Part shown: piece by piece, positions 3,203-29,905 of the stretch
Layout: each line of letters begins with the position of its first letter
Position numbering within the stretch: the stretch's first letter is position 1
Source: Trichodesmium erythraeum IMS101
Lineage (GTDB): Bacteria; Cyanobacteriota; Cyanobacteriia; Cyanobacteriales; Microcoleaceae
Assembly (NCBI RefSeq): GCF_000014265.1
Contig: NC_008312.1
Span: 2,340,001-2,372,000 of the forward strand
Direction of reading: 5' to 3'
Length of the DNA stretch: 32,000 nucleotides
The notes under the pieces: generated by a model
The model's input: only the letters and a program-made list of their open reading frames with translations
Database searches by the model: none
Told to the model about the DNA's origin: nothing
Translations under genes and position numbers: made by a program

Positions 3203-6200
3203 ATGGCAATTTTACATAGTTTTTGGGTGACAGAACATGAACAACCTAGTTTTTTATTTATTTGGGGAGAAGCTTGGCACAGAGTTACAGAAGAGGATGC
3301 TGGTGAAGTAGAAAAAATTACTAATAATCCTTATTCAATAACTTTAGATGAACTATTAAAGTTATCTGAGGCAAATATATATTTATCTTTAGAAAAGCAC
3401 AAAAAATCCACAAATCAAACTTTAGGTATCCCCACAAAGTTATCAGAATCTAACCAAAAATTATACCCAATTCACTCTGCTATAAGTTTATCAGAAATTC
3501 CAGAAAATTTATATATTTATCCCTGGAAAATAGAAGGAATTTGTCTAGAACCTGATGAAGCAATTAAATTTTTACAATCTATTCCTCTAGGACAAACTAC
3601 TGAATCTTTCATCGGGTCAGATTTAAAGTTTTGGTCTCATCTTGCTCGATGGAGTCTTGACTTATTAGCAAGATGTAAGTTTTTACCTTCTATTGAACAA
3701 AGATCTATTACACAAGAATTTATTACAACTTGGCAACCTTTAATTGATAGTTCTATAGACCAAACAAGATTGAAAAATTTTGCCCAACAAATGCCTCTTG
3801 TTTGTCGTACATATAATCTTGATTGGCAATTACATCCTTCTTTAGAAAGTTTACAAATAATTACTAAAAATAATAGTTACTCAAATTTACCTCGACTTCA
3901 ATCAAGTCAAGAAATTATACAGGATTTCTTGAAAAATACAATAGATAAACAGATTAGACAACTATCAGCTGAAATATCTCTAACAGAAACTACCTCATTA
4001 AATTCTTCAATTAGACAATGGTTGAAGTCTTTATCAGGAAAATTAAGTTTAAAATTACCTGCTCCTCAAGAAACAAAAAAAATTCAAAAAATACTTGATA
4101 ATTGGAAGTCACCTCTACAAGAATATCAAGCTATAGAAAATAAGTTTGTTGCCTGTTTTTGTCTCCACTCACCATCAAATAATTCCCAACAATGGAAGCT
4201 AGAATATTGTCTCCAAGGACTTGATAACCCAGATTTTTTGGTTGATGCTAAAACTATTTGGGAAAATCCTGTGGCAAGTTTAAATTATCAAGGTAAAACA
4301 ATTAAACTGCCTCAAGAAACTTTGCTTAAAGGTTTGGGTTTAGCATCAAGAATTTATCCAATTATTGAGCCTAGTTTACAAGAAGCAACTCCCCAATATT
4401 GCTTACTAACTTCACAACAAGCTTATGATTTTATTAAAAGTGGAAGTGGGCGGTTTATTGATAGTGGACTGGGGGTAATTTTGCCTCCTAGTTTAGCTAA
4501 CCGAGAAGGGTGGGCTTCTCGTTTGGGCTTAAGTATTCAGGCTACAGCTCCAAAAATGAAAAAAACTGAAAAACTTGGGTTGAAAAGTCTTCTCAATTTT
4601 AAGTGGCAGTTGTCTATTGGAGGTCATAAATTAACTAAAGCTGAATTTGAAAAATTAGTTTCTCAAGATAGTCCTTTAGTAGAAGTTAATGGTGAGTGGG
4701 TGGAGTTACAAGGTCAAGATGTCCGAGCTGCTAAAAATTTCTTTGCCTCTCGTAAAGACCAAATGAGTTTATCTTTGGAAGATGCTTTGCGCCTGGCGAC
4801 TGGGGATACTCAGACTGTGGAAAAGTTGCCTGTTGTTAATTTTGAAGCTGGGGGTCAATTTCAGGAACTTTTAGATACTTTAACTAATAATCGTTCTTTA
4901 GAGGAAGTTTCTACTCCTGAGAATTTTCGGGGAGAACTGCGCAATTATCAAGCACGAGGGGTAAGTTGGTTGAGTTTTCTGGAACGTTGGGGTTTGGGTG
5001 CTTGTTTGGCGGACGATATGGGTTTGGGTAAGTGTGTGTTGCACGATACAGAAATTTATGTTAATGGTATGGTAATGGAAGCAGAACAAATTTGGCAAGC
5101 TTATGCAGGTGAGGCTGAATTTGATGGGGAAGGGTTTTGGACAGAGCCTAATAAGGAGTTATTGGTAAATTCTTTAGATGAGACAACTGGTAAAATTGTC
5201 TTTGCTCGGATCCGACGGTTATATCGCCAGTGGGTACGGGAAAAGTTACGGAAGGTTAGGTTGAAGGATGGTAGTAGTATTACTATTACTTGTAGGCATA
5301 AATTATTTATTCGCGATAGTTGGAAAAATGATTTTCAGGTGGGAGATGATGTTTGTGTACCTGCAAAGCTGATGTGGGATGGGAAACCAGAAGATCCAGA
5401 TGTGGTTAAGTTTGTTGCTTGGCAAGTAGCTGAAGGATGGGAAAGGGTTAATTCTGGAATGTTTGGTGTTTCTCAGAAGGGAAAGGATGTTTTGGAAGGT
5501 TTACTTGAAGTTTTTAGCAGACTTGGAAAACGATATGATATTAAAATTAATTGCCCTAAAGTTGTTGCTCATGGTAGCAAGAAAAATTGTTATGAATTTA
5601 GTGCGCATAGTTTAGAGTATCGGAAATTTTTGGAAGAAAAAAGATATGGCTGGGGGAAGCGATCGCATGAAAAAACTATCCCACTATTTATAATGCAGGC
5701 TGACTTAGACAGCGTTAGAGTTTTTCTGAGCAACTACTTTGATGCAGAGGGTTGGGTAAACAAAACTGTAAGATGTGTCGAAATTTCTACAGCATCATCC
5801 CAACTTATTCAAGAATTATCTATCCTTCTCAGACGCTTTGGGGTTTGGATGAAAATTTCACCTCAACAGAAATGCGCTACTAATGGTACTGGAGTTTTTT
5901 GTACCTATTATATTGGTACATTTGGTGGTAATTCGGCACGCTGTTTTTTACAAGAAATAGGATTTAATGATTCAGGAAAACAAGAAAATCTTAAGTCAAT
6001 TTGTGAAAAAATTGCTGACTCTAATGTTGAAGGAATTCCTGCTTCTGATATAGTTGCTGAGTTAGTAGAAAAAACTCAACTACCAGTGGGAAGTTTAGGA
6101 ATTCAGGATCCAATTTATATGGATGGTTGCCAAGATTTTTCTCCTACTAGTTTAGAAAAAGTTATTAACAGTATTGAGGATATTATTAGTGGAGCTGGGG

Positions 6201-7798
6201 AAGAGGAGTATGGTCAACTGAAATCTTCAAAATTGAGGAATAAAACTTTAGAGGCTTATTCTTTACTGAATATTTTAGAGCTAGAAATTTATAAAACTAG
6301 GCTGCAAAAATTACTCAACCAAGAGGTCTATTATTGTCAGATAGAATCTATCGAAGAGATGGAATATGAGGGATGGGTTTATGATTTTGAAGTGAGCAAA
6401 TATCATAATTTTGTTGCTAATAATATTATTTGTCATAATACTATTCAAACTATAGCTTTTCTACTGAAACAACAAGAGCAAAAAGCACTTAAAGGACCTA
6501 CGTTATTAGTTTGTCCTACTTCTGTATTAGGAAATTGGGAAAGAGAGGTCAAAAAGTTCGGACCGACTTTAAAAGCAATAGTACATCATGGGGATAAACG
6601 TGCTAAAGGTAAAGGGTTTGCTACAGCAGTAAAAGATACAAATTTAGTCATAACAAGTTATGCTTTATTGCATCGAGATGAGAAAATATTGGAGACAATA
6701 AAATGGCAGTCAGTGATAGTTGATGAAGCCCAAAATATTAAAAATCCAGAGGCAAAACAATCTCAAGCAGCTAGAAAGTTAGATGCATCATTTAGAATTG
6801 CTTTAACAGGAACTCCTGTAGAAAATCGCCTTTCAGAATTATGGTCAATTTTGGATTTTTTGAATCCTGGATATTTAGGTCAAAAGCAATTTTTCCAGCG
6901 TCGGTTTGCTATTCCTATTGAGAAATATGGCGATACAAGTTCGTTGCAAATTTTGCGTTCTCTTGTTCAACCATTTATTCTCCGTCGCCTTAAAACTGAT
7001 AAAGATATTATTCAAGATTTACCAGAAAAACAGGAAAATACTATTTTTTGCCCACTGGCAAATGAACAAGCATTGCTTTATCAAAATATAGTTGAAAATT
7101 CTTTGGCAGAAATTGATACTGTTGGTGGTATTCAGCGAAAAGGAAAAATTTTAGCTTTGTTAATAAAACTGAAACAGTTGTGTAATCATCCTGTACTTTT
7201 ACAAATCAAAAAAGGTAGTAGGAAAAAGGTAGAAATTACTGATAAAAATTCAGGGAAATTACAACGTTTAGGGGCAATGTTGGAAGAAATAATTTCTGAG
7301 GAAGAACGGGCAATTATTTTTACACAATTTGCTGAATGGGGAAAGGTTTTACAACCTTATTTGCAGAAAAGTTTAGGTAGGGAAGTTTCTTTTTTATATG
7401 GTTCTACTCAGAGGAGTAAAAGGGAGGAAATGATTGATCAATTTCAACTGGATCCTCAAGGTCCTCCTGTCATGATTTTGTCGTTAAAAGCTGGAGGTAC
7501 TGGTTTAAATTTGACTCGGGCTAATCATGTTTTTCATTTTGATAGATGGTGGAATCCTGCAGTGGAAAATCAGGCTACGGATCGGGTATTTAGAATTGGT
7601 CAAACTCGAAATGTTCAGGTGCATAAGTTTGTTTGTACTGGAACTTTGGAGGAGAAAATACATGATTTAATTGAAAGTAAAAAGGAGTTGGCTGAGCAGG
7701 TTGTAGGTGCGGGTGAAAAATGGTTGACTGAACTTGATACGGATCAGTTGAGAAATTTATTAATACTTGACAGAAATCAAGTGATTAAAGAGGAATAA
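3203..7798 (+). CDS. SNF2/RapA-type DEAD/H helicase with N-terminal SNF2-helicase-associated region; the precursor contains an intein
   Basis: 1531-aa ORF. Helicase motifs present: LADDMGLGK / (intein) / TIQTIAFLL (motif I restored after splicing), VIVDEAQNIKN (DEAQ box), ALTGTPVENRLSELWS, and the C-terminal LSLKAGGTGLNLTRANHVFHFDRWWNPAVENQATDRVFRIGQ. Predicted mature size is 1062 aa. Confidence 0.95.
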   Translation: MAILHSFWVTEHEQPSFLFIWGEAWHRVTEEDAGEVEKITNNPYSITLDELLKLSEANIYLSLEKHKKSTNQTLGIPTKLSESNQKLYPIHSAISLSEIPENLYIYPWKIEGICLEPDEAIKFLQSIPLGQTTESFIGSDLKFWSHLARWSLDLLARCKFLPSIEQRSITQEFITTWQPLIDSSIDQTRLKNFAQQMPLVCRTYNLDWQLHPSLESLQIITKNNSYSNLPRLQSSQEIIQDFLKNTIDKQIRQLSAEISLTETTSLNSSIRQWLKSLSGKLSLKLPAPQETKKIQKILDNWKSPLQEYQAIENKFVACFCLHSPSNNSQQWKLEYCLQGLDNPDFLVDAKTIWENPVASLNYQGKTIKLPQETLLKGLGLASRIYPIIEPSLQEATPQYCLLTSQQAYDFIKSGSGRFIDSGLGVILPPSLANREGWASRLGLSIQATAPKMKKTEKLGLKSLLNFKWQLSIGGHKLTKAEFEKLVSQDSPLVEVNGEWVELQGQDVRAAKNFFASRKDQMSLSLEDALRLATGDTQTVEKLPVVNFEAGGQFQELLDTLTNNRSLEEVSTPENFRGELRNYQARGVSWLSFLERWGLGACLADDMGLGKCVLHDTEIYVNGMVMEAEQIWQAYAGEAEFDGEGFWTEPNKELLVNSLDETTGKIVFARIRRLYRQWVREKLRKVRLKDGSSITITCRHKLFIRDSWKNDFQVGDDVCVPAKLMWDGKPEDPDVVKFVAWQVAEGWERVNSGMFGVSQKGKDVLEGLLEVFSRLGKRYDIKINCPKVVAHGSKKNCYEFSAHSLEYRKFLEEKRYGWGKRSHEKTIPLFIMQADLDSVRVFLSNYFDAEGWVNKTVRCVEISTASSQLIQELSILLRRFGVWMKISPQQKCATNGTGVFCTYYIGTFGGNSARCFLQEIGFNDSGKQENLKSICEKIADSNVEGIPASDIVAELVEKTQLPVGSLGIQDPIYMDGCQDFSPTSLEKVINSIEDIISGAGEEEYGQLKSSKLRNKTLEAYSLLNILELEIYKTRLQKLLNQEVYYCQIESIEEMEYEGWVYDFEVSKYHNFVANNIICHNTIQTIAFLLKQQEQKALKGPTLLVCPTSVLGNWEREVKKFGPTLKAIVHHGDKRAKGKGFATAVKDTNLVITSYALLHRDEKILETIKWQSVIVDEAQNIKNPEAKQSQAARKLDASFRIALTGTPVENRLSELWSILDFLNPGYLGQKQFFQRRFAIPIEKYGDTSSLQILRSLVQPFILRRLKTDKDIIQDLPEKQENTIFCPLANEQALLYQNIVENSLAEIDTVGGIQRKGKILALLIKLKQLCNHPVLLQIKKGSRKKVEITDKNSGKLQRLGAMLEEIISEEERAIIFTQFAEWGKVLQPYLQKSLGREVSFLYGSTQRSKREEMIDQFQLDPQGPPVMILSLKAGGTGLNLTRANHVFHFDRWWNPAVENQATDRVFRIGQTRNVQVHKFVCTGTLEEKIHDLIESKKELAEQVVGAGEKWLTELDTDQLRNLLILDRNQVIKEE
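5033..6439 (+). mobile_element. 469-aa intein with a LAGLIDADG homing-endonuclease domain, inserted between K and T of the Walker A GLGK|T
   Basis: Starts with the Cys codon TGT at 5033 (CVLHDTEIYV, block A). Block B TxxH is present (ITITCRHKLF). Two LAGLIDADG-like motifs are present (VAWQVAEGW and LSNYFDAEGWV). Blocks F/G read VYDFEVSKYHNFVANNIICHN, ending with Asn at 6437-6439. The +1 extein residue is Thr (ACT at 6440). Removal restores the canonical DDMGLGKTIQTIA. Confidence 0.9.
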
Positions 7799-7851
7799 TT
7801 TTGAGATTTTCTCCACCCTCAAGTTATGATAATTTTGATGCTTTTATCTCC

Positions 7852-7868
7852 TTTTTTTTGGGGGGGGG
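7852..7868. repeat. homopolymer junction T8 G9
   Basis: The sequence cTTTTTTTTGGGGGGGGGaagggtggagg was read directly. The G9 run is striking in an AT-rich genome. It sits inside a long-range inverted repeat, CTCCACCCT (7811-7819) / AGGGTGGAG (7870-7878). Confidence 0.9.
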
Positions 7869-8080
7869 AAGGGTGGAGGCGATCGCTAAGGTTAAAAGTG
7901 AAAAATAGGAGGTCATTTATTAATAGTTAAAAAATGCAAATTTTGAGGTTATCAGTAAACTGATACTTATAAAAATGTAGGCTGGGTATAACAGCGGTGA
8001 AACCCAAAAAAGCTTAATTTTGGTTAGGTTACTCTAATAGTTACTTTTATTTTTAAAATACTGAATAAAACCGACTACTA

Positions 8081-8234
8081 CCTAACACTTAATGCCTAAA
8101 ACCTGGAGCCTAAAACCTGCAACCTAAAACCTGCAACCTAAAACCTGATACCTGACACCTAAAACCTGACACCTACAACCTGCAACCTAACACCTGCTAC
8201 TTAATACCTAACACTTAACACTTAAAACCTAAAT
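8081..8234 (+). repeat. 22 in-phase heptamer repeats (CCTAAAA / CCTGCAA / CCTGACA / CCTAACA ...), STRR-like
   Basis: Parsed by hand without any phase break: cctaaca cttaatg cctaaaa cctggag cctaaaa cctgcaa cctaaaa cctgcaa cctaaaa cctgata cctgaca cctaaaa cctgaca cctacaa cctgcaa cctaaca cctgcta cttaata cctaaca cttaaca cttaaaa cctaaat. It ends 40 nt before the ATPase start. Confidence 0.92.
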
Positions 8235-8273
8235 CGAGGTATATTATAGATATCAACTAACCAATAACTAAAA

Positions 8274-9449
8274 GTGGATAAACAACCTATTGATAATTTA
8301 ACTATTCATCATTTTCGAGGTATACGAGATTTAACTTTGGAAAATTTAGGTCAAATAAATTTATTAGTTGGTGTTAATAATTCAGGGAAAACAAGTGTTT
8401 TGGAAGCAATTTATACTTATTGTAATCCTTTAGAACCTTTGGAATGGTTAAATACTGCTTGGCGAAGAGAAGTTAAATCTTCTCGTAAATCAAAGTTAGA
8501 ATCCCTTAAGTGGTTATTTCCTCAAAATACTCACAATAATTCAGATAGTTTTTATCAAGGAGAAACTTGGGTTTCTGGTAATAGTACTTTTGGTTTTCTA
8601 GAGTCAAAAGCAACTTATCAAGAAATTGAAGAAATCTGGGATTCTACAAAAGATAATGATGAAGAAGATGAGCAAGAAAATTTGATTAATGAGATAGATA
8701 TTGATGATAATGAAATTAGACGTGGTGCAGGTTTAAAACTAAGATTTACTCCTTTAAAGCTAATACCTAAGTCGGATATATTTGACTATGAAAATGATGA
8801 GAAAAATCAGGAAAAGTTTATATCTAAAAATTTTAGAATCTGGGAAAATCAACCATTAACTATTTTGAATAAATATAAGGGGAACTGGTTATCGGTTGAT
8901 ATAGTTACTCCTTTTTCTCATAGGATAGAACAGTTGCAAATTAAACTCTTAACAGGTGCAATTTTTCAAGGTTTTAAGCCGGAGATTATTGAGTTAATTT
9001 CAATGATGGATTCGGAAATTCTTGATTTAGAGATTCTTGACATTACAGGTAAAAATTCTCGCCTTTATGTACGTCATAAAACATTAGGTATTACTCCATT
9101 AAGTTCTTTTGGTGATGGCGTTAGTCGGTTATTATTTATGGCTTTAACTATAGCTAAGTTAAAGGATGGTATTTTGCTAATTGATGAACTGGAAACAGCT
9201 ATTCATACTGAGGCTTTACTTTTTTCATTTTCTTGGTTAGTTAAGTGGTGTAGAAAAACGAATGTACAGTTATTTGCTACTACCCATAGTTTAGAAACTG
9301 TTGATGCAATGTTGAATGCTAGTAAGTTAAGAAATGATTTGGTTTTATATCGTTTATATCAAAAAGATATGCAGACTCAAGCAATTAGAATTGACCAGGT
9401 TAAGCTAACTAGGGTTCGAGAAAATTTAGGTTTAGAAGTAAGATGGTAA
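8274..9449 (+). CDS. ABC/AAA_21-type (RecF/SMC-like) ATPase, stand-alone
   Basis: 391-aa ORF with a GTG start; the in-frame stop TAA lies at 8265. Walker A is GVNNSGKTS (8370-8396). A signature-like SSFGDGVSRLLFMAL is present. Walker B is ILLIDELETAIH, and a His-loop-like ATTHS is present. The N-terminus (LTIHHFRGIRDL) is typical of this ATPase class. No nuclease or DUF4435-type partner ORF follows. Confidence 0.8.
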   Translation: MDKQPIDNLTIHHFRGIRDLTLENLGQINLLVGVNNSGKTSVLEAIYTYCNPLEPLEWLNTAWRREVKSSRKSKLESLKWLFPQNTHNNSDSFYQGETWVSGNSTFGFLESKATYQEIEEIWDSTKDNDEEDEQENLINEIDIDDNEIRRGAGLKLRFTPLKLIPKSDIFDYENDEKNQEKFISKNFRIWENQPLTILNKYKGNWLSVDIVTPFSHRIEQLQIKLLTGAIFQGFKPEIIELISMMDSEILDLEILDITGKNSRLYVRHKTLGITPLSSFGDGVSRLLFMALTIAKLKDGILLIDELETAIHTEALLFSFSWLVKWCRKTNVQLFATTHSLETVDAMLNASKLRNDLVLYRLYQKDMQTQAIRIDQVKLTRVRENLGLEVRW

Positions 9450-9455
9450 AATATG

Positions 9456-12400
9456 CATTTTTTTGAGATGAAATGATTTTTAGGAGGTTGTTTGATGTTT
9501 AAGGTTGGCAACTATATTTGGTGATTTATTGAAGAGCGATCGCTAAACTGGCTACTACCTAAAATCTGCAAGTTAAAACCTACAACTTCTTAAGGAATGT
9601 AATAAGTTGATTCAAAATAATAAGCTAAAAACTACAGGGTTGTTTCCCTGAATAGGTTGTTAAAGTAATGTTTGAAAAGTCAATTTTTTGAGATGAAAGG
9701 ATTTTTAGGAGGTTGTTTGATGTTTAAGGTTGGCAACTATATTTGGTGATTTATTGAAGAGCGATCGCTAAACTGGCTACTACCTAAAATCTGCAAGTTA
9801 AAACCTACAACTTCTTAAGGAATGTAATAAGTTGATTCAAAATAATAAGCTAAAAACTACAGGGTTGTTTCCCTGAATAGGTTGTTAAAGTAATGTTTGA
9901 AAAGTCAATTTTTTGAGATGAAAGGAATTTTAGGAGGTTATTTAATATTTAAGGTTGGCAACTATATTTGGTGATTTCTTGAAGAGCGATCGCTAAACTG
10001 GCTACTACCTAAAATCTGCAAGTTAAAACCTACAACTTCTTAAGGAAAGTAATAAGTTGATTCAAAATAATAAGCTAAAAACTACAGGGTTGTTTCCCTG
10101 AATAGGTTGTTAAAGTAATGTTTGAAAAGTCAATTTTTTGAGATGAAAGGATTTTTAGGAGGTTGTTTGATGTTTAAGGTTGGCAACTATATTTGGTGAT
10201 TTCTTGAAGAGCGATCGCTAAACTGGCTACTACCTAAAATCTGCAGGTTAAAACCTACAACTTCTTAAGGAAAGTAATAAGTTGATTCAAAATAATAAGC
10301 TAAAAACTACAGGGTTGTTTGCCTGAATAGGTTGTTAAAGTAATTTTTGAAAAGTCAATTTTTTGAGATGAAAGGAATTTTAGGAGGTTATTTAATATTT
10401 AAGGTTGGCAACTATATTTGGTGATTTCTTGAAGAGCGATCGCTAAACTGGCTACTACCTAAAATCTGCAGGTTAAAACCTACAACTTCTTAAGGAAAGT
10501 AATAAGTTGATTCAAAATAATAAGCTAAAAACTACAGGGTTGTTTGCCTGAATAGGTTGTTAAAGTAATTTTTGAAAAGTCAATTTTTTGAGATGAAAGG
10601 AATTTTAGGAGGTTATTTAATATTTAAGGTTGGCAACTATATTTGGTGATTTCTTGAAGAGCGATCGCTAAACTGGCTACTACCTAAAATCTGCAAGTTA
10701 AAACCTACAACTTCTTAAGGAAAGTAATAAGTTGATTCAAAATAATAAGCTAAAAACTACAGGGTTGTTTCCCTGAATAGGTTGTTAAAGTAATGTTTGA
10801 AAAGTCAATTTTTTGAGATGAAAGGATTTTTAGGAGGTTGTTTGATGTTTAAGGTTGGCAACTATATTTGGTGATTTCTTGAAGAGCGATCGCTAAACTG
10901 GCTACTACCTAAAATCTGCAGGTTAAAACCTACAACTTCTTAAGGAAAGTAATAAGTTGATTCAAAATAATAAGCTAAAAACTACAGGGTTGTTTGCCTG
11001 AATAGGTTGTTAAAGTAATTTTTGAAAAGTCAATTTTTTGAGATGAAAGGAATTTTAGGAGGTTATTTAATATTTAAGGTTGGCAACTATATTTGGTGAT
11101 TTCTTGAAGAGCGATCGCTAAACTGGCTACTACCTAAAATCTGCAAGTTAAAACCTACAACTTCTTAAGGAAAGTAATAAGTTGATTCAAAATAATAAGC
11201 TAAAAACTACAGGGTTGTTTCCCTGAATAGGTTGTTAAAGTAATGTTTGAAAAGTCAATTTTTTGAGATGAAAGGATTTTTAGGAGGTTGTTTGATGTTT
11301 AAGGTTGGCAACTATATTTGGTGATTTCTTGAAGAGCGATCGCTAAACTGGCTACTACCTAAAATCTGCAAGTTAAAACCTACAACTTCTTAAGGAATGT
11401 AATAAGTTGATTCAAAATAATAAGCTAAAAACTACAGGGTTGTTTGCCTGAATAGGTTGTTAAAGTAATGTTTGAAAAGTCAATTTTTTGAGATGAAAGG
11501 ATTTTTAGGAGGTTGTTTGATGTTTAAGGTTGGCAACTATATTTGGTGATTTCTTGAAGAGCGATCGCTAAACTGGCTACTACCTAAAATCTGCAGGTTA
11601 AAACCTACAACTTCTTAAGGAAAGTAATAAGTTGATTCAAAATAATAAGCTAAAAACTACAGGGTTGTTTGCCTGAATAGGTTGTTAAAGTAATTTTTGA
11701 AAAGTCAATTTTTTGAGATGAAAGGAATTTTAGGAGGTTATTTAATATTTAAGGTTGGCAACTATATTTGGTGATTTCTTGAAGAGCGATCGCTAAACTG
11801 GCTACTACCTAAAATCTGCAAGTTAAAACCTACAACTTCTTAAGGAAAGTAATAAGTTGATTCAAAATAATAAGCTAAAAACTACAGGGTTGTTTGCCTG
11901 AATAGGTTGTTAAAGTAATTTTTGAAAAGTCAATTTTTTGAGATGAAAGGAATTTTAGGAGGTTATTTAATATTTAAGGTTGGCAACTATATTTGGTGAT
12001 TTCTTGAAGAGCGATCGCTAAACTGGCTACTACCTAAAATCTGCAAGTTAAAACCTACAACTTCTTAAGGAAAGTAATAAGTTGATTCAAAATAATAAGC
12101 TAAAAACTACAGGGTTGTTTCCCTGAATAGGTTGTTAAAGTAATGTTTGAAAAGTCAATTTTTTGAGATGAAAGGATTTTTAGGAGGTTGTTTGATGTTT
12201 AAGGTTGGCAACTATATTTGGTGATTTATTGAAGAGCGATCGCTAAACTGGCTACTACCTAAAATCTGCAGGTTAAAACCTACAACTTCTTAAGGAAAGT
12301 AATAAGTTGATTCAAAATAATAAGCTAAAAACTACAGGGTTGTTTGCCTGAATAGGTTGTTAAAGTAATTTTTGAAAAGTCAATTTTTTGAGATGAAAGG

Positions 12401-12932
12401 AATTTTAGGAGGTTATTTAATATTTAAGGTTGGCAACTATATTTGGTGATTTCTTGAAGAGCGATCGCTAAACTGGCTACTACCTAAAATCTGCAAGTTA
12501 AAACCTACAACTTCTTAAGGAAAGTAATAAGTTGATTCAAAATAATAAGCTAAAAACTACAGGGTTGTTTCCCTGAATAGGTTGTTAAAGTAATGTTTGA
12601 AAAGTCAATTTTTTGAGATGAAAGGATTTTTAGGAGGTTGTTTGATGTTTAAGGTTGGCAACTATATTTGGTGATTTCTTGAAGAGCGATCGCTAAACTG
12701 GCTACTACCTAAAATCTGCAGGTTAAAACCTACAACTTCTTAAGGAAAGTAATAAGTTGATTCAAAATAATAAGCTAAAAACTACAGGGTTGTTTGCCTG
12801 AATAGGTTGTTAAAGTAATGTTTGAAAAGTCAATTTTTTGAGATGAAAGGAATTTTAGGAGGTTGTTTGATGTTTAAGGTTGGCAACTATATTTGGTGAT
12901 TTCTTGAAGAGCGATCGCTAAACTGGCTACTA
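9456..12932. repeat. tandem array of about 15.5 units of 225 bp, non-coding, more than 95% identical
   Basis: GCGATCGC lies at 9536, 9761, 9986, 10211, 10436, 10661, 10886, 11111, 11336, 11561, 11786, 12011, 12236, 12461, 12686 and 12911, exactly 225 bp apart each time. Units differ at about 10 sites. Stops occur in all three plus-strand frames of the unit, and the ORF track shows no ORF on either strand. Confidence 0.98.
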
Positions 12933-13002
12933 CCTAATACCTAATACCTAATACCTGCTACCTAATACCTAATACCTAACACCTAAAACCTGCTACCTAA
13001 CA
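12933..13002 (+). repeat. 10 in-phase heptamers (CCTAATA / CCTGCTA / CCTAACA / CCTAAAA)
   Basis: Read directly. The last, truncated 225-bp unit runs straight into this array at ..ggctacta|cctaata... Confidence 0.9.
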
Positions 13003-13008
13003 TTGCTA

Positions 13009-13017
13009 TGCTATAAT
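13009..13017 (+). promoter_or_regulatory. extended -10 element TGCTATAAT, candidate promoter of the Uma2 gene
   Basis: Exact TGnTATAAT, ending 37 nt upstream of the ATG at 13054. No clear -35. Confidence 0.35.
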
Positions 13018-13053
13018 TTCAATCATTCCTAATTAGTTATAAGGTGAAGGTCA

Positions 13054-13818
13054 ATGGTTTTAACTGCCCAACAACTAGAGGCAATAATGCCAGATGCTAC
13101 TCAACTAGAAAGTGAGGAGCCAGAGATGGAAAGCTCTCAACACTATATGCAACTGATATTGCTGGTCATTTGCCTAGAATGGCTGTGGCGCAATAGTAAT
13201 GATTACTTTATCGGTGCTAACCTCACTATTTATTACAGTCGACAGCAACTAAAAAATCGTGATTTTCGGGGTCCTGACTTTTTCTTGGTGAAGCAAACCC
13301 AGAAGCGACCTCGCAAGTCCTGGGTAGTTTGGGAGGAAAACGGTCAATATCCTAATTTAATTATTGAGTTACTATCGGGCTCTACTGCTAAGGTGGATCG
13401 CAATTTGAAAAAAGGGTTATATCAAGATAATTTCCGCACCCCAGAATATTTTTGGTTTGACCCGGAAACATTGGAGTTTATGGGGTTTCGTCTACAAAAT
13501 AATCAGTATGAAGAAATTCAGTTGAATAACCAAGGTTGGCGTTGGAGTCAAGAATTAGAACTATACTTGGGTGTTGATGAAAGTCAATTACGTTATTTTA
13601 CTGCTAATGGTGAACGGGTCCCAACTCCCCAGGAAGCAATGAGACAAGAACAGTTGGTAGCTAGACAGGCTCGGTTACAGGCTGAACAAGAGCGAGAGCG
13701 GGCTCAAAAAGCTGAGTCTCAAGCCAAAAAAGCTCAGTTACAGGCTGAACAGGAGCGAGAGCGGGGAGAACGCCTAGCTCAACGGCTGCGAGAACTGGGT
13801 GTCGATGCTGAACTATAA
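13054..13818 (+). CDS. Uma2-family (DUF820) putative PD-(D/E)xK-fold endonuclease with a C-terminal coiled-coil tail
   Basis: 254 aa. Family-typical blocks are SQHYMQLILLVICLEWLW, YFIGANLTIYYS, PDFFLV, YPNLIIELLSGSTAKVDRNLKKGLYQDNFRTPEYFWFDPETLEF. The tail contains a duplicated LQAEQERER segment. Confidence 0.85.
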   Translation: MVLTAQQLEAIMPDATQLESEEPEMESSQHYMQLILLVICLEWLWRNSNDYFIGANLTIYYSRQQLKNRDFRGPDFFLVKQTQKRPRKSWVVWEENGQYPNLIIELLSGSTAKVDRNLKKGLYQDNFRTPEYFWFDPETLEFMGFRLQNNQYEEIQLNNQGWRWSQELELYLGVDESQLRYFTANGERVPTPQEAMRQEQLVARQARLQAEQERERAQKAESQAKKAQLQAEQERERGERLAQRLRELGVDAEL

Positions 13819-13915: not shown

Positions 13916-16900
13916 ATGCAACAACTTTTGCTCATTAAAAAAATACTTTTCAAATTAGGGCGGAGTTTTCTCCAACTACTGCTTATCGTTTTTGTTGGTT
14001 TGCCTCTGGCGGCGTTAATGTTGATATTTCCGTCGTTGCGGCGGAGGTTGTTACCTAAAACTCAAAATGAAATTTACGATCGCTTAAGTTCAACTGTTGG
14101 TACTAGAGAAAAATTACCAGATCAGCTTCTTTCTCAACTAGATTTTTTAATCCAAGTATTGCGGGTAACTGCAGAAAGTAATGGTGACTCGAAGGTTGTC
14201 TACCCATTCCTGCAGCAAAACTTAGATAAACTTGATGATAACTTTGCTGATATATTGCGAAACTGGGCAACTGCTAATTTTTCTGAAGTGGAGGCGGATG
14301 TAGCAAAAAGCATTGCTATAGATATTATTGACTTCAGTTACAACATTCAGGAATTTCCTCTGGGCAGCAAAGCAAACAACATGGAAATTAGCATTGCAGG
14401 TTATGAAGTAGTGCTAAAAGTTTTTACATATAAGAGTCACCGGGAAAAGTGGGCAATGACTCAAAATAATCTCGGCGTTGCCTACAGTAAGAGAATAAGG
14501 GGAGACAAAGCCGAAAATATTGAAGCCGCCATTGCTGCATACCAACAAGCTTTGCTGGTGTACACCCAAACTGACTTCCCCATCAACTGGGCAATGACTC
14601 AATATAATCTCGGCATTGCCTACAGTGACAGAATAAGGGGAGACAAAGCCGAAAATATTGAAGCCGCCATTGCTGCATACCAACAAGCTTTGCTGGTGTA
14701 CACCCAAACTGACTTCCCCATGGACTGGGCAATGACTCAAAATAATCTCGGCATTGCCTACAGAAACAGAATAAGGGGAGACAAAGCCGAAAATATTGAA
14801 GCCGCCATTGCTGCATACCAACAAGCTTTGCTGGTGCGCACCCAAACTGACTTCCCCATGGACTGGGCAATGACTCAAAATAATCTCGGCATTGCCTACA
14901 GAGACAGAATAAGGGGAGACAAAGCCCAAAATATTGAAGCCGCCATTGCTGCATACCAACAAGCTTTGCTGGTGTACACCCAAACTGACTTCCCCATGGA
15001 CTGGGCAAGAACTCAAAATAATCTCGGCATTGCCTACAGAGACAGAATAAGGGGAGACAAAGCCCAAAATATTGAAGCCGCCATTGCTGCATACCAACAA
15101 GCTTTGCTGGTGTACACCCAAACAGACTTCCCCATCAACTGGGCAATGACTCAATATAATCTCGGCATTGCCTACAGTGACAGAATAAGGGGAGACAAAG
15201 CCGAAAATATTGAAGCCGCCATTGCTGCATACCAACAAGCTTTGCTGGTGTACACCCAAACAGACTTCCCCATGGACTGGGCAATGACTCAAAATAATCT
15301 CGGCATTGCCTACAGAGACAGAATAAGGGGAGACAAAGCCCAAAATATTGAAGCCGCCATTGCTGCATACCAACAAGCTTTGCTGGTGTACACCCAAACA
15401 GACTTCCCCATGGACTGGGCAATGACTCAAAATAATCTCGGCATTGCCTACAGAGACAGAATAAGGGGAGACAAAGCCCAAAATATTGAAGCCGCCATTG
15501 CTGCATACCAACAAGCTTTGCTGGTGTACACCCAAACAGACTTCCCCATCAACTGGGCAATGACTCAATATAATCTCGGCATTGCCTACAGTGACAGAAT
15601 AAGGGGAGACAAAGCCGAAAATATTGAAGCCGCCATTGCTGCATACCAACAAGCTTTGCTGGTGTACACCCAAACTGACTTCCCCATGGACTGGGCAATG
15701 ACTCAAAATAATCTCGGCATTGCCTACAGAAACAGAATAAGGGGAGACAAAGCCGAAAATATTGAAGCCGCCATTGCTGCATACCAACAAGCTTTGCTGG
15801 TGCGCACCCAAACTGACTTCCCCATGGACTGGGCAATGACTCAAAATAATCTCGGCAATGCCTACAGAGACAGAATAAGGGGAGACAAAGCGGAAAATAT
15901 TGAAGCTGCCATTGCTGCATACCAACAAGCTTTGCTGGTGCGCACCCAAACAGACTTCCCCATGGACTGGGCAATGACTCAAAATAATCTCGGCATTGCC
16001 TACAGTGACAGAATAAGGGGAGACAAAGCCGAAAATATTGAAGCCGCCATTGCTGCATTCCAACAAGCTTTGCTGGTGCGCACCCAAACAGACTTCCCCA
16101 TCAACTGGGCAACAACTCAAAATAATCTCGGCCTTGCCTACAGTGACAGAATAAGGGGAGACAAAGCCGAAAATATTGAAGCTGCCATTGCTGCATACCA
16201 ACAAGCTTTGCTGGTGCGCACCCAAACAGACTTCCCCATGGACTGGGCAATGACTCAAAATAATCTCGGCATTGCCTACAGTGACAGAATAAGGGGAGAC
16301 AAAGCCGAAAATATTGAAGCCGCCATTGCTGCATTCCAACAAGCTTTGCTGGTGCGCACCCAAACAGACTTCCCCATCAACTGGGCAACAACTCAAAATA
16401 ATCTCGGCCTTGCCTACAGTGACAGAATAAGGGGAGACAAAGCCGAAAATATTGAAGCTGCCATTGCTGCATTCCAACAAGCTTTGCTGGTGTACACCCA
16501 AACTGACTTCCCCATGGACTGGGCAATGACTCAAAATAATCTCGGCAATGCCTACAGAGACAGAATAAGGGGAGACAAAGCCGAAAATATTGAAGCCGCC
16601 ATTGCTGCATGCCAACAAGCTTTGCTGGTGTACACCCAAACAGACTTCCCCATGGACTGGGCAATGACTCAAAATAATCTCGGCATTGCCTACAGAAACA
16701 GAATAAGGGGAGACAAAGCCGAAAATATTGAAGCCGCCATTGCTGCATACCAACAAGCTTTGCTGGTGCGCACCCAAACTGACTTCCCCATGGACTGGGC
16801 AATGACTCAAAATAATCTCGGCAATGCCTACAGTGACAGAATAAGGGGAGACAAAGCCCAAAATATTGAAGCCGCCATTGCTGCATGCCAACAAGCTTTG

Positions 16901-19628: not shown

Positions 19629-20071
19629 AAATTGTAGTTGTAGGTTGGGCAGAAAACAGGAAAAACGAAACCCAAAGCCAATAATATCAATTGGAAAAAT
19701 CACAACTGCAAAATTTATATAAGAAAGAAATTATCAAATATTTGTAGGGGGGTTAACTGCAGTTAACTCCTCCTATAAAAAGCTGCAAAATTGTAGGTTG
19801 CGTTGCACAATGAAACCCAACAGCAATAATATTAATAACTATAGAAAAATGTAGATAGCAGCCAAAAAAATGTAAGTTAAATTGAAAAATCAAAACCCAA
19901 AAAAGTAATATTAATAGCCATAGAAAAATGTAGATAGCAGCCAAAAAAATGTAAGTTAAATTGAAAAATCAAAACCCAAAAAAGTAGTATTAATATCTAT
20001 AGAAAAACATATATAATAGCCATAAAATTGTAGGCTAGATTGAAAAATGAAACAAAATACTAAATCTAAAA
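19629..20071. repeat. degenerate tandem array of about 79-bp units, about 5-6 units; the last two full units are nearly identical
   Basis: GTAGATAGCAGCCAAAAAAATGTAAGTTAAATTGAAAAATCAAAACCCAAAAAAGTA.TATTAATA.C.ATAGAAAAA occurs at 19851 and 19930 (79-bp offset). Older copies carry TTGTAGGTTG(G/C)G...GAAACCCAA hairpin-like cores, at about 19636 and about 19790. Confidence 0.7.
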
Positions 20072-21457
20072 ATGAAAAACTTGACAATTAGCTTATTAGC
20101 ATTTCATCTATATTCTCCATTCCTAGAATCTTCAGAAACAAACGACCAGGAAGGCAAATTATTATGGGAAAACCTCACCCAACTCGGAGAAAAATCTCTA
20201 CCATTTTTAGGACTCAAATATTTACCCCATCAATTAATTTGCTACGACCAAAATGGCAACTACAACCTAGATTTTAAAACTCATGAAAATAACTGGTGGA
20301 TGAGCAGATCAAAGCAAACAATAGACCTAGGTGTAATTGAAATAGAAGAATGCAAAATAGCAGGTAATCTCCAGCCATTTATCCTCAACGACACCTACGC
20401 CGCCGACCTAACTCTCACACCTAAATTATCAGAAGAAAAACTAGATATTTCTCAACTAAAAAAATTCCCCATAAACAACCTATTACCCTCATCAATTCAA
20501 GCATCACTAGGAGAAACATTTTTAATTTATGGAGAAATAGACTCAGAAGTAAATCCCCAACAAATAGCCGATGAATGTGTAGAAAACTTATTCAATTCCG
20601 CCCAAATTGAACCTGTATTTCTCAGCCAAAGCAAATTATTTAATAGCTTACTATTTGAATACCAAGGAACAGAATTAAACCAAAATAATAACCAAAGTCA
20701 ACCATTCAAAATATTAGTCTTATTAAAAAATAGTCAAGCAGAAACATTAAAACTAGCAGAAAAATCCTATGAATGGATATTACAATTATTATGTTGTCGC
20801 CATAAAATCAATTTTATCTATCAAGAATCACGAAATCTCTACCCCAAAGCCCGAAAATCCTACGGCAAATTAGAAACACAAATGGAAAACTTCTCTAAAA
20901 TAATAGAAGACCCAAAAACCAGACTAGAATCTCTCAAAGAAATCCTCGAAAAAATACCAAAAGACTATCTATATTATTCCCGTTATGTGCGAGACCTAAA
21001 AACACATAAAACCGCCCTCGAAACAAACATCAAAAATTATGAAATCTGCCTAGAAAAAATTAAAAAAACTAGTGAAATCCCTCCATATTGGCAAGAATTT
21101 TTGAATAAAACCAGCCACATCCGTCACAGACAAATTGAAACCGATATTAACTATCTATCCCCTGGTCAGCAGTTATTTGAACAATTAGTAAACGCAATTA
21201 GAGGCATAGCAGAAACAGACCAATTAGAAAGCGATCGCCACTTAGAAAGAACCATTCAAATTATTGGTATAGGATTAGGAACAGGAGGAATTATTGCTTC
21301 TAGTACTGGTCATATTGATGTACCTCTAACCTTCAAATCTACCGGAAAAATAGAAACAATTCATCCTGTTATTTTGACTTTAATTTTAAGCATTTTAGCC
21401 ACCCTATTAGCAGGAGGAATAACCTGGCATCTTACCAAACCTAAAAACAAAAAATAA
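20072..21457 (+). CDS. hypothetical protein: soluble N-terminal domain, coiled-coil middle, two C-terminal TM helices
   Basis: 461-aa ORF. The coiled-coil-like region runs about aa 215-390. The hydrophobic segments are IQIIGIGLGTGGIIASS and IHPVILTLILSILATLLAGGITWHL, followed by a basic KPKNKK tail. No family recognised. Confidence 0.72.
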   Translation: MKNLTISLLAFHLYSPFLESSETNDQEGKLLWENLTQLGEKSLPFLGLKYLPHQLICYDQNGNYNLDFKTHENNWWMSRSKQTIDLGVIEIEECKIAGNLQPFILNDTYAADLTLTPKLSEEKLDISQLKKFPINNLLPSSIQASLGETFLIYGEIDSEVNPQQIADECVENLFNSAQIEPVFLSQSKLFNSLLFEYQGTELNQNNNQSQPFKILVLLKNSQAETLKLAEKSYEWILQLLCCRHKINFIYQESRNLYPKARKSYGKLETQMENFSKIIEDPKTRLESLKEILEKIPKDYLYYSRYVRDLKTHKTALETNIKNYEICLEKIKKTSEIPPYWQEFLNKTSHIRHRQIETDINYLSPGQQLFEQLVNAIRGIAETDQLESDRHLERTIQIIGIGLGTGGIIASSTGHIDVPLTFKSTGKIETIHPVILTLILSILATLLAGGITWHLTKPKNKK

Positions 21458-29007: not shown

Positions 29008-29859
29008 TTAATTTTTTCTGTTATGTTTTCCTCGAAATAAATGATTATGTTCAGGATTATAAAGACCAGAGCGACCTACTTTTTCCAGCTTCTCCAAAGC
29101 AGGACTAATCACATAAAGTGTGGTTCTAACTAACTGTTTCTCTTCAGTCATAAGGGCCATTTTCTCCAAAGGCACAACCCAAATTTTCTCATCAGGCCAT
29201 CCCAACCTATAACATATCGCCACAGGTATGTCAGCCGAATAATGTTCCATCAACTTTTCTTGTGCTTCCCACACATATCGGGCACTCAAATATAAACATA
29301 AACTGGCTCCATGAGCTGCCAAACTACCCAATTCTTCCCTTGAAGGAACAGCAGTTGCTTTCCCACTAATTCTTGTTAAAATAATAGTCTGTACCAACCC
29401 AGGCACAGTCAACTCAACCTTTAACTTAGCTGCTGCATCCTGAAATGCACTAATTCCAGGCACAATCTCAAAATCAATTCCCGCTTCAGCCAAAAGTTGC
29501 ATTTGTTCATAAACCGCCCCATATAAACTAGGGTCTCCAGAATGAAGGCGCACCACAGAAAGACCTTTTCTGACTCGGTCAATCATTAAAGGTAAAATTT
29601 CTTCTAAAGTTTTATTAGCCGTTGTGATAATCTCAGCATCATGACGCACATTCCTTAACATTTGTTTGGGTACCAAAGAATCTGCATATAGAATTACATC
29701 TGCTGTAGTTAAGATTTTGTCAGCCTTCACCGTTAATAAGTCCGGAGCTCCAGGGCCTGCCCCTAAAATGTAAACTGCTGGTGTGAGACTTTTAGTATCG
29801 TTCATTAATTTTTCCGGATATGAGTCTTTATCTTCAGATAAATGGAATGGTAGATGCAC
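29008..29859 (-). CDS. cobM: precorrin-4 C(11)-methyltransferase (CobM/CbiF)
   Basis: VYILGAGPGAPDLLTVKA..ILYADSLV...VVRLHSGDPSLYGA..EQ...L...GI.FEIVPGISAF is classic for tetrapyrrole methylase CobM. The longest ORF starts at 29859, but the biologically likelier start is Met19 (MNDTKSL.., first base at 29805). Confidence 0.9.
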   Translation of the reverse strand: MHLPFHLSEDKDSYPEKLMNDTKSLTPAVYILGAGPGAPDLLTVKADKILTTADVILYADSLVPKQMLRNVRHDAEIITTANKTLEEILPLMIDRVRKGLSVVRLHSGDPSLYGAVYEQMQLLAEAGIDFEIVPGISAFQDAAAKLKVELTVPGLVQTIILTRISGKATAVPSREELGSLAAHGASLCLYLSARYVWEAQEKLMEHYSADIPVAICYRLGWPDEKIWVVPLEKMALMTEEKQLVRTTLYVISPALEKLEKVGRSGLYNPEHNHLFRGKHNRKN

Positions 29860-29869
29860 CCTGGTTTAG

Positions 29870-29905
29870 TCCTAGGCTTTATGTCTAGGACTTTTCTAAT
29901 TTTTC
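29870..29905 (+). terminator. intrinsic-terminator-like hairpin oriented opposite to the flanking genes
   Basis: GTCCTAG (29870-29876), loop gctttatgt, CTAGGAC (29886-29892), followed on the plus strand by TTTTCTAATTTTT. It lies between the lgt stop and the cobM start, both on the minus strand. Confidence 0.3.

What the first reader, a model, noticed from the sequence alone, without database searches (positions are those of the whole stretch)
9456..12932. 3.5-kb array of about 15.5 near-identical 225-bp non-coding units between an ATPase gene and a Uma2 nuclease gene
Seen directly: 16 HIP1 octamers lie exactly 225 bp apart (9536 + 225n up to 12911), so no unit has gained or lost a base over 3.4 kb. 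Units differ at only about 10 sites. An AGGAGG box comes in two forms. The G-type is GGATTTTTAGGAGGTTGTTTGATGTTT (units 1, 2, 4, 7, 9, 10, 13, 15). The A-type is GGAATTTTAGGAGGTTATTTAATATTT (units 3, 5, 6, 8, 11, 12, 14). Unit 16 is a hybrid. The box form is linked to variants just upstream of it: CTGCA(A/G)GTT, GTTT(C/G)CCTG and TAAT(G/T)TTTG. The two haplotypes partly alternate, giving a 450-bp higher-order period (unit pairs starting 9906/10131, 10581/10806, 11931/12156, 12381/12606), with a few recombinant units. Units 3, 6, 8, 12 and 14 are identical at every variable site I tracked, as are units 4, 7 and 10. The array is not protein-coding, because stops occur in all frames. It is not CRISPR, because there are no unique spacers. 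This level of homogeneity implies very recent amplification, ongoing gene conversion or selection on the unit. A known cyanobacterial precedent is the NsiR1 sRNA of Nostoc/Anabaena, which is encoded by a tandem array in which each repeat carries its own promoter. Alternative roles are a protein-binding scaffold with phased HIP1 sites, or a recombination hotspot.
Basis: partly seen in the sequence, partly recalled or inferred. Interest (0 to 1): 0.8.

Follow-up and report, generated by a model that had tools for sequence, protein, structure and literature searches.

The report
Tandem repeat built from defence-gene debris
The 3.5-kb array in Trichodesmium erythraeum is real, but its 225-bp unit is leftover sequence from a decayed phage-defence and restriction-modification locus that was recently copied about 15 times, and nothing found here suggests it is an evolved small-RNA gene array.

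Summary
There are 15.5 head-to-tail 225-bp units with no indels, 16 HIP1 sites exactly 225 bp apart, and about 11 variable sites forming two haplotypes. The window comes from Trichodesmium erythraeum IMS101; the ATPase is Tery_1544.

Related genomes show where the unit came from:
- The ATPase is the A gene of the candidate defence pair PDC-M38. Elsewhere it is followed by DUF3226 (the B gene), and in one relative also by a C5 DNA methyltransferase and an NspV-type restriction enzyme.
- Each unit holds the first 18 codons of that methyltransferase (now with stops), about 120 nt of unknown origin containing HIP1, and four heptamer repeats.
- A single copy, 80% identical, sits at the same place in a sister Trichodesmium lineage.
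- IMS101 has also lost DUF3226, leaving a 7-codon stub.

The unit diverged at least as fast as fourfold-degenerate sites. It has no promoter-like site, no significant fold, no Rfam match and no coding-type substitution pattern. The higher-order period is six units (1350 bp), not 450 bp.

Best reading: a young, probably functionless minisatellite that may be read through from the ATPase gene. Expression was not testable.

In passing: a genuine single-copy NsiR1 homologue lies at 29848-29899.

The parts
8080..8233 (.). Heptamer (ACCTAAA-type) short tandem repeat array upstream of the ATPase gene. It is the same repeat type that forms the last 28 nt of each 225-bp unit.
   Evidence: Tandem Repeats Finder, 22 copies; sequence; blastn of the unit tail against 8095-8137.
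8274..9449 (+). AAA_15/AAA_21 ATPase, Tery_1544 of T. erythraeum IMS101. It is the A component of the PADLOC candidate defence pair PDC-M38 and is AbiLi-like.
   Evidence: Pfam; PADLOC PDC-M38A E 1.1e-76; 100% match named Tery_1544.
9443..9466 (+). Stub of the lost partner gene (DUF3226 = PDC-M38B): ATG GTA AAA TAT GCA TTT TTT TGA = MVKYAFF*. Relatives start MVKYAIIALEG... and run to 259 aa. The deletion junction lies at a CAATT microhomology with the unit.
9456..9585 (+). Left, partial unit (positions 96-225 of the evolutionary phase). It carries two private substitutions.
9586..12735 (+). Fourteen complete 225-bp units in the evolutionary phase, each starting CTTCTTAAGG. This is the sequence that directly follows the DUF3226 stop codon in relatives.
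9607..9660 (+). Pseudogene fragment, present in every unit (+225n up to 12757-12810). It is the first 18 codons of a C5 DNA methyltransferase including motif I, now LIQNNKLKTTGLF(A/P)*IGC against intact LTQTNKLKAIELFAGIGG.
   Evidence: tblastn and blastn against Dapis and bin.35 loci; intact MTase-NspV pair in L022; coordinates.
10036..11385 (+). Higher-order block 1 (units 3-8, haplotypes alpha-beta-beta-alpha-beta-alpha).
11386..12735 (+). Higher-order block 2 (units 9-14, same haplotype order). It differs from block 1 at 5 sites, so it is a real 1350-bp segmental duplication.
10778..10851 (+). Example of the weak, GU-rich 25-bp plus-strand hairpin that contains the AGGAGG box; one per unit. 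No evidence of selection on it.
12736..12937 (+). Last unit, truncated where its own heptamers give way to a different heptamer array.
12927..13000 (.). Heptamer (CCTAATA-type) array forming the right boundary.
   Evidence: Tandem Repeats Finder; sequence.
13054..13818 (+). Uma2-family putative endonuclease gene. TGCTATAAT (an extended -10-like motif) lies at 13007-13015, just upstream.
   Evidence: Pfam; sequence.

Best explanation
The array is a young tandem amplification (a bacterial minisatellite) of non-functional sequence left behind when a defence island decayed.

The ancestral locus was ATPase (PDC-M38A) - DUF3226 (PDC-M38B) - C5 methyltransferase - NspV-type endonuclease. In the Trichodesmium lineage the restriction-modification pair was deleted. 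What remained was the first 18 methyltransferase codons, about 120 nt of unidentified origin containing a HIP1 site, and four heptamer repeats. This roughly 200-nt remnant survives as a single copy in the sister lineage.

The following steps are inferred:
1. In the T. erythraeum lineage the remnant was duplicated head to tail, probably by illegitimate recombination at a CTTA microhomology next to the heptamers.
2. The two copies diverged into haplotypes alpha and beta.
3. The array then expanded by unequal crossing-over, including one six-unit (1350-bp) duplication.
4. A microhomology-mediated deletion (CAATT) removed DUF3226 and the first part of a unit.

Homogeneity reflects youth and concerted evolution, not selection on the unit. 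The exact 225-bp HIP1 phasing is simply a consequence of indel-free copying.

No terminator-like site lies on the plus strand between the ATPase stop codon and Uma2. The array is therefore probably transcribed passively as a long 3' extension of the ATPase mRNA (inferred, not shown).
For: Shown:
- Synteny series. L022 has ATPase-DUF3226-DNA_methylase-NspV. L019 has ATPase-DUF3226-methyltransferase pseudogene. L014 has ATPase-DUF3226-single unit-HicAB. L015 has ATPase-DUF3226 followed by 69 nt (of the 76 before the contig end) 95.7-98.6% identical to the IMS101 units (98.6% to the best), and then the contig ends.
- The start of the unit matches the methyltransferase N-terminus: blastn E 5e-7 to 8e-8; tblastn E 2.5e-7 for the single-copy form and 0.004 for the IMS101 unit.
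- The last 28 nt are four heptamers of the type flanking the ATPase gene.
- The unit is 80% identical to its progenitor over 195 nt. Fourfold-degenerate sites of the adjacent ATPase gene between the same two genomes are 86.8% identical.
- AGGAGG and the ATG are derived states, and beta matches the outgroup at 4 of 5 polarisable sites.
- No promoter-like site lies inside the array (2 found in 9300-13100, both outside it, against 12.5 expected). No plus-strand terminator-like site was found.
- No Rfam match. Fold z-scores run from -0.4 to -1.9.
- Six-unit higher-order structure.
- Alpha and beta differ at 7 of 225 sites (3.1%). IMS101 and MAG_R01 differ by 2.6% at fourfold sites, so the first duplication may be about as old as that split.
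- The same genome holds another array built partly from a duplicated gene fragment (PMC4143802).
Against: - Absence of function cannot be shown from sequence.
- That study's libraries omitted RNAs under 300 nt, and its TSS tables were not available here. Expression of this array is therefore unknown.
- Zero indels in 3.4 kb and the persistence of two haplotypes could also be read as constraint.
- A 25-bp plus-strand hairpin keeps pairing in alpha, beta and the progenitor. The plus-strand C>T and A>G substitution bias that explains this is also seen outside the hairpin and in the ATPase gene.
- The origin of the middle ~120 nt of the unit was not identified.
Confidence: 0.65

Rival explanations
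1. ncRNA array: each unit, or each higher-order block, produces a small or medium RNA with a regulatory role. This would resemble NsiR1 of Nostoc or the 7-repeat array at 103-110 kb of the same genome.
For: - There is precedent in the same genome (PMC4143802) and in Nostocales (PMC6596454).
- Each unit has minus-strand hairpin-plus-T-run sites: 13 found against 1.7 expected.
- Each unit has a weak plus-strand 25-bp hairpin that stays paired in the progenitor.
- The published libraries would have missed RNAs under 300 nt.
Against: - No promoter-like site on either strand and no TCCGGA.
- No Rfam hit at E <= 10.
- Fold z-scores are not significant.
- The minus-strand hairpin CAGGG/CCCTG is absent from the progenitor and is broken in half of the units.
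- Divergence from the progenitor is at or above the synonymous rate.
- Pair-preserving changes are explained by a locus-wide substitution bias.
- The array is not among the top-20 transcripts of PMC4143802.
Confidence: 0.15
2. Cis-acting spacer or 3'UTR: the array is kept because its length or sequence affects ATPase mRNA stability or translation, or insulates Uma2 and the TPR-CHAT gene from upstream transcription.
For: - The array starts 7 nt after the ATPase stop codon, with no plus-strand terminator-like site before Uma2.
- Uma2 has its own TGCTATAAT motif.
- The plus-strand C>T and A>G bias is compatible with the plus strand being the non-template strand of a transcribed region (inference).
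Against: - Nothing indicates selection.
- The ATPase itself shows near-equal substitution at all three codon positions against MAG_R01 (0.961, 0.964, 0.956). This suggests relaxed constraint after loss of its partner.
Confidence: 0.1
3. Micro-peptide array: G-type units carry AGGAGG, 7 nt, then ATG and a 9-codon ORF (MFKVGNYIW). All units carry an 18-codon ORF (MKGFLGGCLMFKVGNYIW or MKGILGGYLIFKVGNYIW).
For: - The Shine-Dalgarno-like box has ideal spacing in 8 or 9 units.
- The KVGNYIW stretch differs from the progenitor only at three third positions.
Against: - The ATG is lost in seven units.
- AGGAGG is AGGAAA in the progenitor, where the ORF has a different end (33 codons).
- Over the whole ORF, differences from the progenitor fall 1, 6 and 4 on codon positions 1, 2 and 3, which is not a coding pattern (read directly from the alignment).
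- The changes follow the general C>T bias.
Confidence: 0.03
4. Assembly artefact or mis-estimated copy number in the reference genome.
For: All short-read assemblies collapse the array, bridge it with N, or break at it. No independent count therefore exists here.
Against: - Independent assemblies reproduce both edges and at least two different consecutive units.
- The ordered SNP haplotypes, and two 1350-bp blocks that differ at 5 sites, are not what a collapsed or falsely duplicated assembly gives.
Confidence: 0.05

Closest known systems
Seven-repeat array at 103-110 kb of T. erythraeum IMS101 (Pfreundt et al. 2014, PMC4143802)
   Same: Same genome. It is an intergenic head-to-tail array of near-identical non-coding units, and each unit contains a duplicated fragment of a gene (there the 3' part of Tery_0080). 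The rest of the unit has no similarity elsewhere.
   Different: Units there are 736-973 bp, there are 7 copies, and each has a mapped TSS giving a ~260-nt RNA that is the most abundant transcript. For the 225-bp array no TSS, promoter-like site or transcript is known.
NsiR1 tandem array of Nostoc/Anabaena (Ionescu et al. 2010; Rfam RF02399)
   Same: Direct repeats in an intergenic region of a filamentous cyanobacterium.
   Different: NsiR1 repeats each carry a HetR-dependent promoter (TCCGGA at -35), a 60-nt RNA with a conserved 5' end, and a terminator. None of these is present in the 225-bp unit. The real NsiR1 homologue of this genome is a single copy at 29848-29899.
Bacterial minisatellites/VNTRs and cyanobacterial STRR heptamer repeats (own knowledge: Mazel et al. 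1990 for STRR; MIRU-VNTR in mycobacteria)
   Same: Head-to-tail non-coding repeats that grow and shrink by slippage or unequal recombination. The unit ends in four STRR-type heptamers and the array is bounded by heptamer arrays.
   Different: The unit is much longer (225 bp) than STRR (7 bp) or typical VNTR units (10-100 bp). It shows satellite-like higher-order structure, which is rarely described in bacteria.
PDC-M38 (PADLOC candidate defence pair) / AbiL
   Same: The ATPase matches PDC-M38A (E 1e-76) and AbiLi. In relatives the downstream DUF3226 gene matches PDC-M38B.
   Different: In IMS101 the B gene is reduced to 7 codons and the array occupies its place. The pair is therefore incomplete here.
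Type III toxin-antitoxin RNA arrays (ToxI; own knowledge)
   Same: A tandem non-coding repeat next to an abortive-infection-type gene.
   Different: ToxI repeats are about 36 nt, lie upstream of an endoribonuclease toxin and are processed by it. Here the units are 225 nt, lie downstream of an ATPase and derive from pseudogene debris.

Membership tests
NsiR1-type sRNA repeat array | Sequence and structure match to the NsiR1 covariance model (Rfam RF02399) | tested here: not met
   No hit in 7800-13200 at E <= 10. The model does hit 29848-29899 in the same window, so the test had power.
NsiR1-type sRNA repeat array | Own promoter in every repeat (DIF+ TCCGGA at -35, or any sigma-70-like site) | tested here: not met
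   No TCCGGA in the array. No promoter-like site inside the array on either strand. The scan covers consensus sigma-70 promoters only.
NsiR1-type sRNA repeat array | Intrinsic terminator in every repeat on the transcribed strand | tested here: inconclusive
   None on the plus strand. There are 13 weak hairpin-plus-T-run sites on the minus strand, one type being absent from half of the units and from the progenitor.
NsiR1-type sRNA repeat array | Discrete transcript of unit-internal length | not testable with these tools
   No expression data were accessible. The supplementary TSS tables of PMC4143802 are not held.
Conserved structured RNA (any) | Stable fold and compensatory changes across homologues | tested here: not met
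   z-scores run from -0.4 to -1.9. One pair has a change on both sides. The one-sided changes are explained by a locus-wide C>T and A>G bias. Only two lineages were available, so power is low.
CRISPR array | Short repeats (about 25-50 bp) separated by unique spacers | tested here: not met
   The units are contiguous and 97-100% identical over all 225 bp.
Non-coding tandem repeat (minisatellite/satellite DNA) | Head-to-tail copies without an ORF; variants arranged in higher-order blocks indicating unequal exchange | tested here: met
Pseudogene-derived repeat | Unit homologous to a gene fragment at the syntenic position in relatives, with disabling stops | tested here: met
   C5-methyltransferase N-terminus directly after DUF3226.
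PDC-M38 / AbiL-like two-gene defence system | Both A (ATPase) and B (DUF3226) genes present | tested here: not met
   A is present. B is reduced to MVKYAFF*. B is intact in L014, L015, L019 and L022.
Mobile element internal repeat / phage or plasmid sequence | Unit found in phage, plasmid or viral contig collections or flanked by transposase | tested here: not met
   No match in plasmids or phages. The viral-contig hits are limited to the 19-22 nt seed.

The most novel reading that the evidence does not exclude
The amplified remnant has been co-opted. The array would be transcribed from the plus strand, from the ATPase promoter or from a non-consensus promoter in each unit. Its roughly 15 copies of a GU-rich hairpin carrying an exposed AGGAGG box would act as an RNA sponge or antitoxin-like partner. 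That partner would tame the orphan PDC-M38A ATPase after loss of its protein partner DUF3226. This would be a protein-to-RNA replacement inside a defence system.
Probability: 0.06. Interest if true: 0.7.

Novelty: new member of a known kind. Interest (0 to 1): 0.3.

Why it matters
Trichodesmium erythraeum is notable for having about 40% non-coding DNA. This locus gives a fully traceable example of how some of that DNA arises. A defence and restriction-modification island decays, a roughly 200-nt remnant is left, and the remnant is amplified into a 3.5-kb satellite with higher-order structure.

It also shows that near-perfect repeat homogeneity and a tidy Shine-Dalgarno-like box can arise without function. 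That is a useful caution for sRNA prediction in this genome. If the array turns out to be expressed, it would join the 103-110 kb array as a second repeat-derived RNA of unknown role.

Tried and rejected
- Rfam scan of the array at E <= 10: only a chance snoR11 hit inside the ATPase gene.
- Plasmid and phage blastn with two units: nothing.
- 20-mer scan of genome contigs and metagenome contigs: only the MAG_R02 single copy, a chance Myxacorys hit limited to the 20-mer, and one contig holding the right edge. The IMS101 genome itself was not returned.
- Viral-contig scan: seed-only chance hits.
- My early impression that the end of the unit resembles the last 45 nt of the ATPase ORF: rejected. 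The local alignment score was 16, against 18.8 +/- 2.8 for shuffles.
- Search for the origin of the middle ~120 nt of the unit in the methyltransferase, NspV or downstream ORF of L022 and in the Dapis pseudogene: only non-significant matches, E > 0.1.
- A plus-strand hairpin at first looked conserved, with 99% of cells paired and nine pairs varying compatibly. I rejected it as evidence of selection because the same C>T and A>G bias holds outside the hairpin and in ATPase synonymous sites.
- The supplementary TSS tables of Pfreundt 2014 are not held, and no paper mentions Tery_1543-1546.
- One literature search was wasted on the prefix 'AbiL'.
- One look-up (P0048) was not on record.
Full report
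**1. The observation**

Tandem Repeats Finder reports one array at 9459-12937 with period 225, 15.5 copies, 97% matches and no indels. GCGATCGC (HIP1) occurs 16 times at 9536 + 225n, and every spacing is exactly 225.

The longest stop-free stretch in any frame is 32 codons. The flanking genes are an AAA_15/AAA_21 ATPase (8274-9449) and a Uma2 gene (13054-13818). The array is real and far beyond chance.

One sub-claim does not hold, the 450-bp higher-order period. Unit-to-unit differences at lag 2 are ordinary (permutation p = 0.42). Lag 6 stands out (p = 0.011), and positional identity is highest at 1350 bp (0.989).

**2. Where the window comes from**

The ATPase is 100% identical to Tery_1544 of Trichodesmium erythraeum IMS101. 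This genome is known for about 40% non-coding DNA and for another tandem array: seven units of 736-973 bp at 103-110 kb. Each of those units contains a duplicated gene fragment, and the array gives the most abundant RNA of the cell (PMC4143802). The 225-bp array is not mentioned there, nor in any paper I could search.

**3. What the unit is**

The ATPase matches PADLOC PDC-M38A (E 1.1e-76) and AbiLi. This is a two-gene candidate defence system, yet no partner gene follows it in the window. Loci of close homologues explain why.

| Locus | Source, ATPase identity | Order after the ATPase |
|---|---|---|
| L022 | cyanobacterial bin P01_H01_bin.35, 71% | DUF3226, C5 DNA methyltransferase (390 aa), NspV-type restriction enzyme |
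| L019 | Dapis, 78% | DUF3226, the same methyltransferase as a pseudogene |
| L015 | Trichodesmium MAG_R01, 92% | DUF3226 (259 aa, PDC-M38B), then 76 nt before the contig ends; 69 nt of these match the IMS101 units at 95.7-98.6% identity |
| L014 | MAG_R02-type, 82% | DUF3226, one single copy of the unit (199 nt, about 80% identical), then hicAB |

Aligning these fixes the evolutionary phase of the unit. It starts at CTTCTTAAGG, the sequence just after the DUF3226 stop codon, at window 9586 + 225n. Its parts are:
- Nucleotides 22-75 are the first 18 codons of the methyltransferase with motif I. The intact protein reads LTQTNKLKAIELFAGIGG. The IMS101 unit reads LIQNNKLKTTGLF(A/P)*IGC, with stops. 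Support: blastn E 5e-7 to 8e-8, and tblastn E 2.5e-7 for the single-copy form.
- The last 28 nt are four heptamers of the CCTAAAA/CCTGCAA type. The same type forms the arrays at 8080-8233 and 12927-13000.
- The middle ~120 nt holds the AGGAGG box and HIP1. It is present in the single-copy form, but its older origin could not be found.

IMS101 has also lost DUF3226. Only ATG GTA AAA TAT GCA TTT TTT TGA (9443-9466, MVKYAFF*) remains. It is fused to position 96 of a unit, at a CAATT shared by both parents. The microhomology mechanism is inferred.

**4. Is the unit under selection?**

- *Rate.* The unit is 80% identical to its single-copy progenitor over 195 nt. Fourfold-degenerate sites of the adjacent ATPase gene in the same two genomes are 86.8% identical. 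The unit has therefore changed at least as fast as silent sites.
- *The box.* The progenitor has AGGAAA and ACA where IMS101 has AGGAGG and ATG/ATA. Haplotype beta (the A-type box) matches the outgroup at 4 of 5 polarisable sites, so the Shine-Dalgarno-plus-ATG look of the G-type is a recent accident.
- *Coding.* Over the 18-codon ORF, differences from the progenitor fall 1, 6 and 4 on codon positions 1, 2 and 3, and the stop is at a different place (read from the alignment).
- *Promoters and terminators.* The consensus scan finds no promoter-like site inside the array on either strand and no plus-strand terminator-like site. Weak minus-strand hairpin-plus-T-run sites exist, but one type is missing in half of the units and in the progenitor. 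TCCGGA is absent.
- *RNA structure.* Single units and dimers fold no better than shuffles, with z from -0.4 to -1.1.
- *The hairpin.* RNAalifold proposes a 25-bp GU-rich plus-strand hairpin around the box. It stays 99% paired in alpha, beta and the progenitor, with nine pairs changing compatibly, and z from -1.4 to -1.9. All these changes are C>T or A>G on the plus strand, which automatically turn G-C and A-U pairs into G-U. The same bias holds outside the hairpin (C>T 7, A>G 6, G>A 2, T>C 0). It also holds at synonymous ATPase sites (C>T 12 against G>A 4; A>G 9 against T>C 5). The hairpin is therefore not evidence of constraint. The bias is compatible with the plus strand being the non-template strand of a transcribed region, which is an inference.

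**5. How the array grew**

In the evolutionary phase the variants collapse into two haplotypes, alpha (ACG-TGGG) and beta (AGT-AAAA), which differ at 7 of 225 sites (3.1%). Units 3-8 and 9-14 both read alpha-beta-beta-alpha-beta-alpha and differ at only 5 sites. A six-unit block was therefore duplicated.

The alpha/beta divergence is similar to the IMS101-MAG_R01 divergence at fourfold sites, 2.6%. The MAG_R01 contig also breaks inside the unit. Together these suggest that the first duplication is about as old as that split and that later expansion was recent. This is inferred.

The junction CCTACAA|CTTCTTAAGG can be derived from the progenitor by joining ...TTTCTTA, which lies after the heptamers, to ACTTAAGG, which lies after the DUF3226 stop, at CTTA. 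This inference is weak.

**6. Other assemblies**

Contigs from more than 20 samples carry the identical ATPase or Uma2 gene. They end inside the first or last unit, or bridge the array with N. This confirms both edges, the DUF3226 deletion and a multi-copy repeat. It does not confirm the copy number.

**7. Verdict**

The most likely reading (0.65) is a young, non-adaptive minisatellite made of defence-island debris, possibly read through from the ATPase gene. The rivals are:
- an expressed ncRNA array (0.15);
- a cis-acting 3'UTR or spacer (0.10);
- micro-peptides (0.03);
- an assembly artefact (0.05).

Expression is the decisive unknown and could not be tested here.

The finding is a new example of a known kind. 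It is of moderate-to-low interest, and its main value is as a traceable case of how Trichodesmium accumulates non-coding DNA.

**8. In passing**

- Position 29848-29899 (+) scores 41.1 bits against Rfam RF02399 (gathering score 39). Its 5' 16 nt are identical to the consensus, it has a terminator hairpin, and TCCGGA lies exactly 35 nt upstream.
- The syntenic lgt-cobM spacers of a T. thiebautii-type contig (48.8 bits) and of Okeania (43.2 bits) hit too. The terminator stem co-varies among them, and TCCGGA is kept in the former.
- Reviews describe NsiR1 as confined to heterocyst-formers (PMC6596454).

Noticed in passing
window 29848-29899 (+), promoter motif 29813-29818; L037 2407-2458 (-); L039 2370-2421 (-): A single-copy NsiR1 homologue scores 41.1 bits against Rfam RF02399 (gathering score 39). 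It has TCCGGA (the DIF+ motif of HetR-dependent heterocyst promoters) exactly 35 nt upstream. It is conserved at the syntenic lgt-cobM spacer in T. thiebautii-type (48.8 bits) and Okeania (43.2 bits) contigs, and the terminator stem co-varies. Reviews describe NsiR1 as limited to heterocyst-forming cyanobacteria. Trichodesmium forms diazocytes, so this may matter more than the array itself.
   Followed up: partly
window 14450-17465 within ORF 13916-19255 (+): There are 21.9 copies of a 138-bp (46-codon) repeat, 95% identical, inside a 1779-aa TPR_10/TPR_12 + CHAT protein gene. This is a coding tandem array as homogeneous as the non-coding one. The 1010-aa antisense ORF (14414-17446) is probably a by-product of the repeat.
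   Followed up: no
window 8274-9449 compared with L015 8001-9170 and L014 392-1555: Against MAG_R01 the ATPase shows nearly equal identity at codon positions 1, 2 and 3 (0.961, 0.964, 0.956). This suggests relaxed constraint on the orphaned PDC-M38A gene.
   Followed up: partly
L011/L012/L013 (34-aa stub), L020 (200 aa), L021 (split 121 + 126 aa), L019 (methyltransferase with in-frame stops): The DUF3226 (PDC-M38B) gene and the adjacent restriction-modification genes are truncated, split or pseudogenised independently in several Trichodesmium, Okeania and Dapis genomes. The ATPase stays intact in all of them.
   Followed up: partly
window 8274-12937 (+): There is a strand-asymmetric substitution pattern relative to the MAG_R02-type lineage: plus-strand C>T and A>G greatly exceed G>A and T>C. 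It appears in both the ATPase gene and the repeat unit, and the unit has a GC skew of +0.29.
   Followed up: partly
window 3203-7798 (+): A 1531-aa SNF2-family helicase (DUF3670 + SNF2-rel_dom + Helicase_C) is interrupted by an intein carrying a LAGLIDADG homing endonuclease domain.
   Followed up: no
window 19827-20052: A 79-bp AT-rich repeat occurs 2.9 times (89% matches) in the spacer before ORF 20072-21457, which has no Pfam match.
   Followed up: no
window 7850-7885: A homopolymer run T8 followed by G9 lies next to a HIP1 site just downstream of the SNF2 gene. It is a possible slippage-prone tract.
   Followed up: no
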